Assembly (NCBI RefSeq): GCF_009914755.1
Contig: NC_060928.1
Strand: one strand, 5' to 3'
Source of the DNA: the human T2T-CHM13v2.0 reference genome, Homo sapiens
Length of the DNA stretch: 64,000 nt
A program made the translations under genes and the position numbers. Below, piece after piece: positions 43,768 through 47,241 of the stretch. Below the pieces are notes generated by a model. That model saw only the letters and a program-made list of their open reading frames with translations. It searched no databases and was not told where the DNA came from. Positions within the stretch are counted from its first letter, which is position 1. Every line of letters begins with the position of its first letter.

Positions 43768-44459
43768 TGAAAGGAGGGGCCAGCTAGGCTTCCTGGGTAG
43801 AGTAGGGGCTCAGAAAGCTGTGAAACTCACTCATTTCCTGCATCAGGACTTACTTTGGTCCTGGATGAATAATATTGAAGACATATGCTTAAAATATTCC
43901 TAATATCAGAATTTGTGCATGTGTTTTCTTCCCCAAGAAAGCTATAAACAGTGAAAATTTTGCTGTAAGCTTCCCTGTGTCCTCTCTCCCTCTCTCTCTT
44001 CCCCCTCCCCTGAAACTAAAATGAATGTTAATTGCCCATTTGTCTGTGACCAGTGGACCTTATCTATGCTTCCAATTCCAATTCCTTGTAAACATACTTT
44101 GTAAAGTCCTGTGAGATCCTGTCTCCTTTGCCGATGCAGGGTCATAAAGTAGATAAAACCTAAGTTGCAATTCTGGTTTTCCTCAAGATCTGAGACATGT
44201 TAATTGTCTTTGTTTCTCGCTCTGGTAACATCTGCCCACCTCACGTATTTCCTGCCTTAAAGAGTTTAAAAGGTGATTGAAGAATGTAACACTGGCTACC
44301 GCTCGGGACCTCTTCCATGCTGTGGAAGCTTTGTACTGTCACTCTGCTCAATAAAGCCTATGGCTTTTTTTGCTCTTGGTCAGTGTCTCCATCATTCCCC
44401 ATGGGCAGCCACCTCACCAATTATTTGGCGTGGCTAAGGCAAGAACCTTTGGCATTACA
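43768..44459 (+). mobile_element. LTR30 solo LTR (ERV1)
   Basis: tgaaaggaggggccagctaggcttcctgggtagagtaggggctcagaaagc...ggcattaca; AATAAA present; perfect 4-bp TSD TGAT. Confidence 0.85.
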
Positions 44460-44622
44460 TGATGAGAAACAAATTCACTGTGCACTTTCTAAAAATGTCT
44501 GTCCAGTGAAACAGGACGCACTTATCCACAAGGTACACGAAGCAAATTTACTAAGTACAGATAGCCAGCAAAGGACAACGGAAGCCTAGTGTTACCGGGG
44601 GTCCTTGCTCACAGAGCTTCCA

Positions 44623-45330
44623 GCGAGGTATGCAGTGGTCAGTGATAATGGAATCCTTGAAAGTAATCCCCTCACTCCAGGAACTAGTGCTCAGCTGGCA
44701 GAATAGCCCTCACTCAGGCACTAGAATTAGGAGAAAGGAAAAGGGTAAATACATATACAGACTCTAAGTATGCTTACCTAGTCCTCCATGCCCATGCAGC
44801 AATATGGAGAGAAAGGGAATTCCTAACTTCTGAGGGAACACCTATCAAACATCAGGAAGCCATTAGGAGATTATTATTGGCTGTATAGAAACCTAAAGAG
44901 GTGGCGGTCTTACTGCTGGGGTCATCAGAAAGGAAAGGAAAGGAAAATAGAAGAGAACCGCCAAGCGGATACTGAAGCCAAAAGAGCCACAAAGCAGGAC
45001 CCTCCATTAGAAATGCTTATAGAAGGGCCCCTAGTATGGGGTAATCCCCTCTGGGAAACCAAGCCCCAATACTCAGGAGGAGAAATAGAATGGGGAACCT
45101 CATGAGGACATAGTTTTCTCCCCTCAGGATGGCTAGCCACCAAAGAAGGAAAAATCCTTTTGCCTGCAGTTAACCAATGAAAATTAGTTAAAACCCTTCA
45201 ACATACCTTTCACTTAGGCATTGATAGCACTCATCAGATGGCCACATTTTTATTTACTGGACCAGGGCTTTTCAAAACTATCAAGCAGATAGTCAGGACC
45301 TGTAAAGTGTGCCAAAGAAATAATCCCCTG
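44623..45330 (+). pseudogene. HERV-W pol fragment (RNase H to integrase zinc finger)
   Basis: Translates in pieces as YAVVSDNGILESNPLTPGTSAQLAE, YTDSKYAYLVLHAHAAIWRER, TFHLGIDSTHQMA, CKVCQRNNP. Confidence 0.9.
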
Positions 45331-45353
45331 CACTGCAAGCCATACATTTCAAT

Positions 45354-45644
45354 CCCTGTATCTTTAACTTCCTTGTTAAGTTTGTCTCTTCCAGAATCGA
45401 AGATGTAAAACTACAAATCGTTCTTCAAATGGAGTCCCAGATGCAATCCATGACTAAGATCTACCACGGACCCTTGGACTGGCCTACTAGCCCATGCTCT
45501 GATGTTAATGACATCAAAGTCACCCCTCCTGAGGAAATCTCAACTGCACCACCCCACTACGCCCCAATTCAGCACGAAGCAGTTAAAGCGGTCATCGGCC
45601 AACCTCCCCAGCAGCATTTGGGTTTTCCTGTTGAGAGGTGGGAA
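45354..45644 (+). pseudogene. HERV-W env cytoplasmic-tail fragment and polypurine tract
   Basis: ORF 45429..45647 MESQMQSMTKIYHGPLDWPTSPCSDVNDIKVTPPEEIST is homologous to the syncytin-1 C-tail; PPT gagaggtgggaa. Confidence 0.9.
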
Positions 45645-46434
45645 TGACAGACAAGACTAGCTAGATTTCCTAGGCTGACTAAGAATCCCTAAGCCTAGCT
45701 GGGAAGGTGACCATTTCTACCTTTAAACACAGGGCTTGCAACTTAGCTCACACATGACCAATCAGATAGTAAGGAGAGCTCACTAAAATGCTAATTAGGC
45801 AACAACAGGAGGTAAAGAAATAGCCAATCATCTGTTGCCTGAGAGCACAGTGGGAGGGACAATGATCTGCATATAAACCCAGGCATTCCAGCCGGCAATG
45901 GCAACACCCTTTGGGTCCCCTCCCCTTGTATGGGAGCTCTGTTTTCATTCTATTTCACTCTATTAAATCTTGCAACTGCACTCTTCTGGTCCATGTTTGT
46001 TACAGCTCGAGCTGAGCTTTCGCTTGCCGTCCACCACTGATGTTTTGCCACTGTCGCAGACCCACCACTGACTTCCATTCTTCTCGATCCAGCAGGGTGT
46101 CCGCTGTGCTCCTGATCCAGCGAGGTGCCCATTGCCACTCCTGATTGGGCTAAAGGTTTGCCATTGTTCCTGCATGGCTAAGTGCCTGGGTTTGTCCTAA
46201 TCGAGCTGAACACTAGTCACTGGGTTCCACAGTTCTCTTCCGTGACCCACAGCTTCTAATAGAGCTATAACACTCACCACATGGCCCAAGATTCCATTCC
46301 TTGGAATCCGTAAGGCCCAGAACCCCATGTCAGAGAATACGAGGCTTGCCACCATCTTGGAAGCGGCCCGCCACCATCTTGGAAGAGGCTCGCCACCATC
46401 TTGGAAGCTCTGTGAGCAAGGACCCCCAGTAACA
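45645..46434 (+). mobile_element. LTR17, complete U3-R-U5
   Basis: tgacagacaagactagctagatttcctagg...; CCAAT boxes, TATAAA at ~45872, ATTAAA polyA signal at ~45962; ends cagtaaca. Confidence 0.95.
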
Positions 46435-47241
46435 CTAGGACTCATTGTGAACTGGTCCTCCAATCTTCAGAAAGCTGCCTAGGGTGGATGGAGTCTCAAA
46501 TGTGTGTGCCCCACTTGCGCTGCCAGTGAGGGACTCCAAAAGGAAGCCTGTTCAGGGTTACATGCCTCAGGAAAAATGTGACTCACTGGGTAAAGCTTTG
46601 AGGGATATCCTGCTTCTATGGGAGACAGGAACAAAGCCCAGATGTCCTGGTCTTTTCTTCCCTATCTCAGGATAAGGGGATAGGGTGATAGGGTGAACTG
46701 TCCTGGGTAGTTCTTCCCTGTCTCAGGATATTTCATTGTTTGTTAGCACATTCTACAATTACTCTCAGAACTCTACACAAGTAGGCGAGGGGAGAGAAAG
46801 ATGGTTGGCTAAGGCTATCCAGAGACCAACCAACATCTGAATTTACAGAAATCGTGGCACATAGATCCTTTCCTCATATCCAGCCTCCATAAGGCAGCAG
46901 GATACTGAGGCATGACATGAAAAGTCAAACAGAGAAACGTGAAAAGCTATCTTTGTTCATTGGGCAAGGAAATACTGAAGGAAGAGTCAATTTTGTTTAT
47001 TACAGAAGGAGAAGGAGCTGAAATATTGCTGAATTTTGGAATATCTATAATTGGAGTCTATATGCTTAACTGATGAGCCAAGGATATACTCTATATTATA
47101 CCAAGTGCCATAAAAATTATTATAATAAAAATAACAACTTTTGAGCATAATGATATTTTATGTTAGGCCCTTGTAGCATTGTATAGTAGAACAAGCACTG
47201 AGATAAAATGGGAGAACAGGTTCTATTACCAACCAAATCTT

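What the first reader, a model, noticed from the sequence alone, without database searches (positions are those of the whole stretch)
44586..46438. HERV-W derivative with two U5 ends: a retroviral element bounded by terminal inverted repeats
Seen: the 1.85-kb element starts tgttaccgggggtccttgctcacagagcttcca (44590-44622). This is the reverse complement of its own last 33 nt (46402-46434) at 32/33 identity, and the one mismatch is a CpG transition. It then runs straight into sense-strand pol (RNase H), with no 5' LTR, PBS or gag. CTAG flanks both ends and the interrupted host LTR appears to read through. Known: HERV-W copies are normally proviruses (direct LTRs, 4-bp TSD), solo LTRs or L1-made processed pseudogenes (R-to-R, polyA, long TSD); this fits none of them. 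Inference A: a short nascent minus-strand strong-stop DNA switched template and primed plus-strand synthesis inside pol. That would give a linear DNA with U5 att sites at both ends that integrase accepted, an unusual integration route. Inference B: CTAG is palindromic and both junctions share CCTAGTG, so a later microhomology template switch in the genome could have replaced the 5' part of a normal provirus.
Basis: partly seen in the sequence, partly recalled or inferred. Interest (0 to 1): 0.8.

Follow-up and report, generated by a model that had tools for sequence, protein, structure and literature searches.

The report
HERV-W fragment with two U5 ends
A 1.85-kb remnant of the HERV-W retrovirus on human chromosome 4 carries the same LTR tip at both ends, in opposite orientation, inside a clean 4-base target duplication, which suggests the viral integrase once inserted an aberrant DNA with two identical ends.

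Summary
Window 44590-46434 is a 5'-truncated HERV-W copy. It holds pol from the start of RNase H to the integrase zinc finger, the family-wide env deletion, a purine tract and a complete 790-nt 3' LTR17. Its left end is a 33-nt antisense copy (32/33) of the LTR's own U5 terminus. Twelve old paralogues of the interrupted host repeat carry the flanking tetranucleotide only once. CTAG is therefore a true 4-bp target duplication, and CCTAGG is an ancestral host palindrome. The site fits the target motif I measured for LTR17. It is not an L1 pseudogene, a twin-priming inversion, a solo LTR or a local inversion.

I found no second case. All 114 other U5 termini examined in this genome continue as full LTRs; two further 16-nt matches are at chance level. 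[quoted passage not shown]

Best reading (0.55): integrase joined two U5 ends, with one non-homologous joint (1-nt overlap) made during or just after reverse transcription. Main rival (0.27): a template switch through the palindromic CCTAGTG junctions of a once-normal provirus. It is a one-off curiosity: a new variant of a known kind.

The parts
44586..44589 (.). Left copy of the 4-bp target-site duplication CTAG
   Evidence: Read directly. The host-repeat paralogues carry the tetranucleotide once (12 of 12).
44590..44622 (-). 33-nt antisense copy of the LTR17 U5 terminus (begins TG; att-like end)
   Evidence: 32/33 to LTR positions 758-790. Zero mismatches to the 28-nt U5-end pattern on the minus strand. 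Part of inverted pair I1.
44623..45335 (+). pol remnant, from the start of RNase H to the integrase zinc-binding domain; spread over several frames with stops. The right boundary is approximate.
   Evidence: Pfam RNase_H, E 2.1e-6, 28.4 bits (cut-off 25.8), on 44688-44888. Pfam Integrase_H2C2, E 5.8e-10, on 45181-45408. Frames. 95-99% identity to 39 other copies from 44622-44629 onward.
45336..45632 (+). Segment downstream of the family-wide deletion that joins integrase to the 3' end of the internal region. It resembles the env C-terminal tail by recall only. Boundaries are approximate.
   Evidence: The stretch 45270-45420 across the joint is matched over at least query positions 3-148 of 151, at 94-96%, by all 39 other scored copies. 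No Pfam hit for frame 45324-45647.
45633..45644 (+). Purine-rich tract directly before the LTR (polypurine-tract position)
   Evidence: row 1 shows GGTGGGAA before the LTR start. 39 of the 100 listed LTR starts are preceded by similar G-rich octamers (hand count).
45645..46434 (+). Complete 3' LTR17 (790 nt, TG...CA). U5 holds three 22-nt-spaced repeats at 46341-46408. The last 33 nt (46402-46434) form the right arm.
   Evidence: LTR start row 1, end. Repeats are family D1. The last 228 nt are 94% identical to a 5' LTR end that is followed by a PBS-like sequence (L061).
46435..46438 (.). Right copy of the target-site duplication CTAG
44460..44585 (.). Left half of the interrupted old host repeat (family not named; left boundary approximate)
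   Evidence: 12 paralogues at 70-83% identity.
46439..46670 (.). Right half of the same host repeat (right boundary approximate)
   Evidence: The right flank aligns colinearly in the same paralogues, overlapping the left flank by exactly 4 nt in L014, L016 and L017. Site display.

Best explanation
A HERV-W reverse-transcription product that had a U5 terminus at each end was inserted by the viral integrase in one concerted reaction into the CTAG of an old host repeat.

Shown:
- Both ends are exact LTR17 U5 termini (TG...CA).
- The insertion is precise, with the 4-bp duplication typical of the family.
- The site fits the family's target motif.
- The internal part is the ordinary env-deleted HERV-W variant.
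- The short form is listed at about the same size in apes down to gibbon.

Inferred:
- The one abnormal joint, between U5 position -33 (antisense) and the start of RNase H in pol (1-nt overlap), was made before or at integration. One route is a template switch of a nascent tRNA-primed minus-strand DNA onto minus-strand DNA. Another is end-joining of a short U5-ended by-product to a broken viral DNA.
- A second U5 terminus is naturally at hand, because a virion carries two primed RNA genomes (established retrovirology, recalled).
- After insertion the copy simply decayed.
For: 1. Termini and duplication. The arms are 32/33 identical and each ends exactly at the host junction. CTAG occurs on both sides, but once in 12 of 12 host paralogues.

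2. Integrase signature.
- Among 81 host-flanked LTR17 U5 ends, the 3' flank shows T at +2 (47/81), A at +3 (53/81), G or C at +5 (62/81) and A at +6 (59/81).
- The U3 side mirrors this, with T at -6 in 34/56 (hand count of the 100 listed rows of 319).
- The site GC|CTAG|GA meets 5 of the 6 motif positions.
- CTAG fits the VTAB duplication reported for MLV (passage of PMC3790719).

3. Integrases perform concerted integration of two U5-end mimics in vitro (passage of PMC3790719).

4. Precedent for loss of the 5' LTR before integration. HTLV-1 proviruses without a 5' LTR still carry the 6-bp repeat; 8 of 12 ATL cases were judged to have formed before integration (passages of PMC6950816 and PMC3185741).

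5. Only one aberrant joint is needed, and its 1-nt overlap suits a non-homologous strand transfer or end joining.

6. The missing 5' part is not displaced nearby, as far as the probes reach: no other LTR17, leader or pol piece lies in the window.

7. Orthologs are listed at 1827-2163 bp in four apes, and none is full-length.
Against: - No second example. 98 of 98 other 28-nt U5-end matches and 16 of 18 further exact 16-mer matches continue as full LTRs. The remaining 2 have no HERV-W sequence beside them and fit the backwards-pattern controls, which gave 5 hits.
- The census is incomplete. It misses arms under 16 nt and diverged arms. 22 of the 122 28-nt matches were not listed; 16 full-LTR ends absent from the 100 listed rows turned up in the 16-mer searches, but whether they belong to those 22 was not checked.
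- The single case sits on a palindromic duplication, found at only 5 of 81 and 5 of 56 ordinary ends. Palindromy plays no part in this model but is needed by the rival.
- The left flank has G at -6, which is rare (3/56 on the U3 side; the equivalent C at +6 is 4/81).
- The searched literature reports no natural provirus with two U5 ends.
- The ortholog evidence is lengths from a table, not sequence.
Confidence: 0.55

Rival explanations
1. A normal HERV-W provirus integrated at CCTAGG. Because the duplication is palindromic and LTRs start with TG and end with CA, the left junction and the reverse complement of the right junction share CCTAGTG.

A polymerase then switched template at this 7-nt match, copied 31 further nt of the U5 end in reverse, and switched back into pol. 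This replaced about 6 kb (5' LTR to RT). The switch could have happened during post-integration gap repair, when both 4-nt gaps read CTAG and lie side by side, or later in a replication-based event of the MMBIR/FoSTeS type.
For: - The 7-nt shared junction is real, and its host part is ancestral: CCTAGG in 7 of 12 paralogues.
- Palindromic duplications are a minority among ordinary LTR17 ends (5/81; 5/56), yet the only case found has one.
- No non-palindromic case was found among the 114 other termini examined.
- A 33-nt inverted templated insert with 1-nt homology at the return joint is the usual look of such switches (established knowledge, recalled).
Against: - It needs at least two switches across roughly 2-7 kb plus loss of the U3-joined strand, against one aberrant joint in the best explanation.
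- A normal provirus had to land on a palindrome under this model too, so palindromy by itself does not favour it. What counts is the rate of such a rearrangement, and per locus that should be very low (inference).
- Apes down to gibbon are listed at about the same short length, and rhesus has no ortholog. A late event is therefore confined to the interval between integration and the gibbon split.
- No remnant of the 5' part survives, as far as the probes reach.
Confidence: 0.27
2. Another post-integration rearrangement that does not depend on the palindrome. Examples are a double-strand break in pol repaired with a chance templated insertion, or gene conversion from another copy.
For: ERVs commonly suffer deletions. 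For example, pol homology of the chromosome 9 copy ends abruptly about 730 nt upstream of the RNase H point, with no matching duplication there.
Against: The inverted piece starts exactly at the LTR's last base and abuts exactly one copy of the duplication. A random break and repair would have to hit both boundaries to the nucleotide. No donor copy lies in the window.
Confidence: 0.08
3. An L1-made processed pseudogene of HERV-W with a 5' inversion by twin priming.
For: Most HERV-W copies are L1-made: 135 of 213 in PMC5016936 (passage). Twin priming also gives an inverted 5' piece (recalled).
Against: - The 3' LTR runs to the end of U5 at CA, not to R plus poly(A).
- The duplication is 4 bp and not 5-15 bp.
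- The target is CCTAGG, not TT/AAAA.
- The inverted piece comes from the extreme 3' end of the DNA, not from upstream of the direct part (class definition).
Confidence: 0.01
4. An assembly artefact.
For: None specific to this locus.
Against: - The arms differ at one base.
- The flanks are single-copy apart from old paralogues.
- A HERV-W locus of about this length is listed at this position in four other, independently assembled ape genomes.
Confidence: 0.01

Closest known systems
HTLV-1 'type 2' defective proviruses formed before integration (Miyazaki et al. 2007, as described in PMC6950816 and PMC3185741; the original paper was not held)
   Same: The 5' LTR and upstream genes are missing and the 3' LTR is intact. 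The family-typical short target repeat still flanks the insert, so integrase is thought to have inserted an already truncated DNA.
   Different: In those cases the left end is described as internal pol or env sequence. Here it is a genuine inverted U5 att end. Those are somatic and recent, with a 6-bp repeat; this one is germ-line, fixed, over about 17 million years old, with a 4-bp repeat. I could not check whether any HTLV-1 case carries an inverted U5 piece.
In vitro concerted integration with two U5 donor ends (for example PMC3790719)
   Same: Two identical U5 termini are joined to opposite target strands at the family spacing, at a weakly palindromic target.
   Different: That is an assay with synthetic oligonucleotide ends on separate molecules. 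Here both ends bound one natural viral DNA in a chromosome.
Canonical HERV-W provirus (LTR17-HERV17-LTR17)
   Same: LTR17, pol and the env-deleted internal region, TG...CA ends, a 4-bp duplication and the target motif.
   Different: It has no 5' LTR, PBS, gag, protease or RT. The left end is U5 in reverse instead of U3.
L1 5' inversion by twin priming
   Same: The overall shape: a truncated retro-element with an inverted piece at its 5' end.
   Different: The enzyme, the target, the duplication length, the 3' end and the origin of the inverted piece all differ (see the rival explanations).
Templated inverted insertions from replication template switching (MMBIR/FoSTeS, short template switches)
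   Same: A short inverted copy of nearby sequence sits at a deletion joint with microhomology.
   Different: Here the copied piece and the joint coincide to the base with a viral att end and with the target duplication.

Membership tests
HERV-W (LTR17 / HERV17 internal) | LTR homologous to LTR17 copies | tested here: met
   The U5 end matches 122 genomic sites with zero backwards controls. The U3 start matches 319 sites. The last 228 nt are 94% identical to L061.
HERV-W (LTR17 / HERV17 internal) | Internal sequence colinear with other family copies | tested here: met
   39 other scored copies match pol from 44622-44629 onward at 95-99%. 39 match the integrase/3'-internal joint at 94-96%.
Canonical integrase-made provirus | Two direct LTRs (U3-R-U5 at both ends) | tested here: not met
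   Only one LTR is present. The left end holds 33 nt of U5 in reverse, and no other LTR17 piece lies in the window.
Canonical integrase-made provirus | TG...CA termini and a 4-bp target duplication | tested here: met
   The flanks fit the family target motif.
Canonical integrase-made provirus | PBS after the 5' LTR | tested here: not met
   The arm is followed by pol. A PBS-like sequence is seen after 17 of 98 other U5 ends.
L1-processed HERV-W pseudogene | 5' end at R, 3' end at R plus poly(A), 5-15-bp duplication, TT/AAAA target (definition from passages of PMC5016936) | tested here: not met
   The 3' LTR is complete through U5, there is no poly(A), the duplication is 4 bp and the target is CCTAGG.
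Solo LTR | A single LTR flanked directly by the duplication | tested here: not met
   1055 nt of internal sequence and arm lie between the left duplication and the LTR.
Provirus truncated before integration (HTLV-1 type 2-like) | 5' LTR absent, 3' LTR intact, family-length target repeat at both ends | tested here: met
Provirus truncated before integration (HTLV-1 type 2-like) | Truncation present from the time of integration | tested here: inconclusive
   Orthologs in four apes are listed at 1827-2163 bp and none in rhesus. These are lengths only, and the interval before the gibbon split remains open.
Class II (DNA) transposon with terminal inverted repeats | A transposase or a non-autonomous derivative; family-specific inverted repeats shared by many copies | tested here: not met
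   The content is retroviral. The outward-facing arm pair is unique in the genome.

The most novel reading that the evidence does not exclude
This locus would be a fossil of an undescribed by-path of retroviral replication. In it, a nascent tRNA-primed minus-strand DNA, only 33 nt long, leaves U5 and continues on minus-strand DNA inside pol. It thereby acts as a plus-strand primer and gives a linear DNA with U5 att sites at both ends. Integrase inserts this DNA as efficiently as a normal genome. If so, 'inverted-repeat ERVs' should exist as a rare, overlooked class in many ERV families and in present-day proviral reservoirs.
Probability: 0.25. Interest if true: 0.6.

Novelty: new variant of a known kind. 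Interest (0 to 1): 0.45.

Why it matters
If integrase really joined two U5 ends in vivo, this is natural evidence for two things. The U3 end is dispensable for germ-line integration. And aberrant reverse-transcription products can be fixed as precise insertions.

That matters for how truncated proviruses are classified. They are usually read as later deletions. It also matters for surveys of defective proviruses that rely on primers in both LTRs and would miss such forms.

If the rival is right instead, the locus illustrates how a palindromic target duplication can seed a template switch at provirus junctions.

Either way it is a single, old and inert copy. No function is implied.

Tried and rejected
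Rejected readings:
- L1 pseudogene and twin priming: rejected on the 3' end, the duplication length and the target.
- Autointegration: it would join the terminal CA of U5 to pol, not an internal U5 position, and would not leave a U5 tip at the host junction (reasoning).
- Local inversion or transposition of the 5' part: no other LTR17, leader or pol sequence in the 64-kb window.
- Microhomology at the inner joint: only 1 nt (A) is shared. A 5-nt GCGAG lies 8 nt beyond the breakpoint in antisense U5, but the product does not fit a switch there.

Tests that did not discriminate:
- Target-motif asymmetry, as a way to tell a U5 left end from a U3 left end. The motif is symmetric.

Census and its limits:
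- 98 ends plus 18 gave no second case.
- A wider census of the left ends of all proviral-type copies was planned as 79 stretches of 10 kb. HERV-W copies truncated at the 5' end but still bounded by a duplication therefore remain unexamined.
- Other ERV families were not scanned.
- One chromosome 9 copy looked truncated, but it has no matching tetranucleotide at the boundary. This is inconclusive.

Literature:
- Four searches for a natural two-U5 provirus found none.
- PMC12657518 treats internal deletions only (outline and term search).
- Miyazaki 2007 is not held.
- The supplements held for PMC5016936 do not list the locus.

Full report
**What is there**

Window 44586-46438 reads CTAG, then 33 nt TGTTACC...GCTTCCA, then pol, a purine tract, an LTR ending ...CCCCCAGTAACA, and CTAG again.

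The repeat finder gives one outstanding inverted pair, 44585-44622 with 46402-46439. It is 38 nt long and 97% complementary. The other four pairs in 4 kb are 17-38 nt at 71-83%.

BLAST of the window's own LTR places LTR positions 758-790 on 44622-44590 at 32/33. The one difference is a CpG transition. Among exact 16-nt termini in the genome, 44 carry CG, 23 CA and 28 TG. The left arm therefore keeps the form that is still a CpG, and the right arm has decayed.

**Anatomy**

- Pfam finds RNase_H in the frame at 44688-44888 (28.4 bits, cut-off 25.8) and Integrase_H2C2 in the frame at 45181-45408. Three other frames give nothing. The reading frames are broken.
- With a 141-nt query across the left joint, 40 of 132 candidates were scored. 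Only the own locus spans the joint. The other 39 start at window 44622-44629.
- Nine other copies, aligned by eye, read ordinary pol upstream of that point, where the window reads antisense U5. The two sources share one A.
- The joint between the integrase zinc finger and the last internal segment (45270-45420) is matched almost end to end, at 94-96%, by all 39 other scored copies (40 of 235 candidates scored). That deletion is a family trait and not a local event. A passage of PMC5016936 also says env is the element most often lost.
- The LTR starts at 45645 after GGTGGGAA (row 1) and ends at 46434, which makes 790 nt. A chromosome 5 solo LTR measures 777 nt by the same two patterns.
- That the segment before the LTR is the env tail is my recollection. 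I did not test it.

**The insertion site**

The left flank finds 12 old paralogues at 70-83% identity. The right flank continues colinearly in them. In L014, L016 and L017 the two flank alignments overlap by exactly 4 nt.

At the site, 10 of 12 paralogues read CTAG once and 2 read CTGG once. None has it twice. Seven of 12 read CCTAGG. CTAG is therefore a true 4-bp duplication, and the extra C...G that lengthens the inverted repeat to 38 nt is host sequence.

**Is it an integrase site?**

I fetched 98 of the 100 listed matches (of 122) to a 28-nt U5-end pattern; the other two listed are the window's own arms. Seventeen are followed by a PBS-like sequence and 81 by host DNA. The 81 host flanks show:

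- T at +2 in 47
- A at +3 in 53
- G or C at +5 in 62
- A at +6 in 59
- NTAN in 28
- a palindromic tetranucleotide in 5
- CTAG in 2, which are a duplicated pair on chromosome 5

I then counted by hand the 100 listed rows (of 319) of a U3-start pattern that prints 8 upstream bases. I dropped 39 rows preceded by purine tracts, 3 ambiguous rows and 2 duplicates. The remaining 56 rows gave T at -6 in 34, G at -6 in 3, CTAG in 3 and palindromes in 5.

The motif is thus symmetric: T-S-[NTAN]-S-A. The window's GC[CTAG]GA meets five of its six positions. It also fits the VTAB duplication reported for MLV (PMC3790719, passages). Because the motif is symmetric, it cannot tell whether the left end entered as a U5 or a U3 end.

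**Is there a second case?**

- All 98 other ends continue as LTR17 for about 180-200 nt.
- Exact 16-nt termini in three variants gave 95 hits, against 5 backwards-pattern control hits. Only the window's two hits form an outward-facing pair within 10 kb.
- Of 18 hits not seen before, 16 are full LTR ends. Two (chromosomes 19 and 17) are bare 16-23-nt matches with no HERV-W sequence beside them, within the parts of the family I held. That number is what chance predicts.
- No other LTR17, leader or pol piece lies in the window.
- Limits: arms shorter than 16 nt, diverged arms, other ERV families and the mirror form with two U3 ends were not covered. A planned look at the left ends of all proviral-type copies could not be run.

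**Orthologs**

Table S1 of PMC5775608 (supplement read) lists human locus 4p15.1 as follows:

| Species | Coordinates | Length |
|---|---|---|
| Chimpanzee | 4:33683797-33685959 | 2163 bp |
| Gorilla | 4:33947794-33949620 | 1827 bp |
| Orangutan | 4:34513514-34515578 | 2065 bp |
| Gibbon | 20:53240062-53241905 | 1844 bp |
| Rhesus | 'x' | - |

The text says absence may mean integration after the split. The human element is 1845 bp, at chr4:33.71 Mb of this assembly.

That the table's locus is this one is inferred from position and size. It is the only 4p15.1 entry. My capped searches show no other HERV-W hit in the surrounding region of this contig: the nearest are at 23.1 and 42.1 Mb.

No listed ortholog is a full-length provirus. 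The short form therefore existed before the gibbon split.

**Mechanism**

Exact att-like ends, an exact family-length duplication and a motif-conforming site all point to integrase.

Best reading. Integrase synapsed two U5 ends. This needs only one abnormal joint, between antisense U5 position 33 and the start of RNase H, with a 1-nt overlap. There are three candidate routes to that joint, all inferred:

- A nascent tRNA-primed minus strand switches onto minus-strand DNA and continues as a plus strand.
- A stalled minus strand copies the 5' end of a strong-stop DNA.
- A short U5-ended by-product of the co-packaged second genome takes part, either joined to a broken viral DNA before integration or used as the second donor with the free ends joined afterwards.

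Three published points support the feasibility. In vitro concerted integration of U5-only donors is routine. HTLV-1 proviruses that lack the 5' LTR yet carry the 6-bp repeat are read as formed before integration. Integrase of Ty1 can insert foreign fragments (search-listing abstract of PMC2939329 only).

Rival. The palindromic duplication makes CCTAGTG common to the left junction and to the reverse complement of the right one. A polymerase could have switched there, either in gap repair right after a normal integration or in a later replication accident. It would have copied the U5 tip backwards and returned in pol.

This explains why the only case sits on a palindrome, which is found at 6-9% of ordinary ends. 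But a normal provirus would also have had to land on that palindrome, so the comparison reduces to event rates. One aberrant viral DNA joint, at per-cent to per-mille frequency by the HTLV-1 precedent, stands against two long-range switches at one exact base of one locus within the few million years before the gibbon split. I put the two readings at 0.55 and 0.27.

**Comparison and novelty**

The element belongs to HERV-W. It fails the tests for a canonical provirus (direct LTRs, PBS), an L1 pseudogene and a solo LTR. It meets the outward criteria of a provirus truncated before integration. It differs from the described HTLV-1 cases in having a real inverted U5 end.

Four full-text searches found no report of a natural provirus with two U5 ends. 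The original HTLV-1 paper and the main supplement of PMC5016936 could not be seen and may bear on this.

It is a new variant of a known kind: well documented here, a single case, and with a mechanism that remains open.

Noticed in passing
window 46341-46408: U5 of this LTR holds three 22-nt-spaced repeats (GCCACCATCTTGGAAG core). Many other LTR17 copies align with a 22-nt or 44-nt shift, which suggests they carry fewer units. The inner breakpoint of the arm lies inside the last unit.
   Followed up: partly
window 45270-45420: The joint that removes most of env is shared by all 39 other scored HERV-W copies. Only 5 of these 40 loci, counting the window's own, lie next to a complete U5 3' end in my lists. 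Most are therefore L1-made copies of the same deleted transcript.
   Followed up: partly
L033-L130 (genome-wide LTR17 ends): LTR17 insertions show a symmetric target motif T-S-[NTAN]-S-A. A at +6 is found in 59 of 81 and T at -6 in 34 of 56. This is stronger than I expected for copies this old.
   Followed up: yes
L044/L046 and L100/L101: Two pairs of LTR17 ends have near-identical flanks: one on contigs 23 and 24 (X and Y), one as two sites on contig 5. They are duplicated loci and not independent insertions. The contig 5 pair is a solo LTR with CTAG on both sides.
   Followed up: no
L024 around position 1501: In one paralogue of the host repeat, an Alu-like sequence begins directly after the same CTAG where HERV-W entered in the window. 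This is probably coincidence.
   Followed up: no
window 44300-44460: Just upstream lies the end of another LTR-like element (AATAAA, ending ...TTACA). Its last 30-37 nt match three other loci at 95-100% (L022, L025, L026). I did not identify the family.
   Followed up: no
L007 (contig 9, 35661185-35664258), about 730 nt upstream of the RNase H point: A HERV-W copy with a complete 3' LTR loses pol homology abruptly. The sequence beyond is not LTR17, and the tetranucleotide of its 3' flank (CTAA) is not at the boundary.
   Followed up: partly
L033 and L114: Two LTR17 ends on contigs 1 and 9 have similar 3' flanks (CTAAGAGGGTCATGGGAAC and CTAACAGGGTCATGGGAATC). They are either insertions into the same repeat family or an old duplication.
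   Followed up: no
I did not examine it.
   Followed up: no
window 44623-44628 and antisense of 46389-46393: GCGAG occurs both at the pol side of the joint and 8 nt beyond the breakpoint in antisense U5. A switch at that match would have kept 8 nt that are absent, so I treat it as chance.
   Followed up: partly
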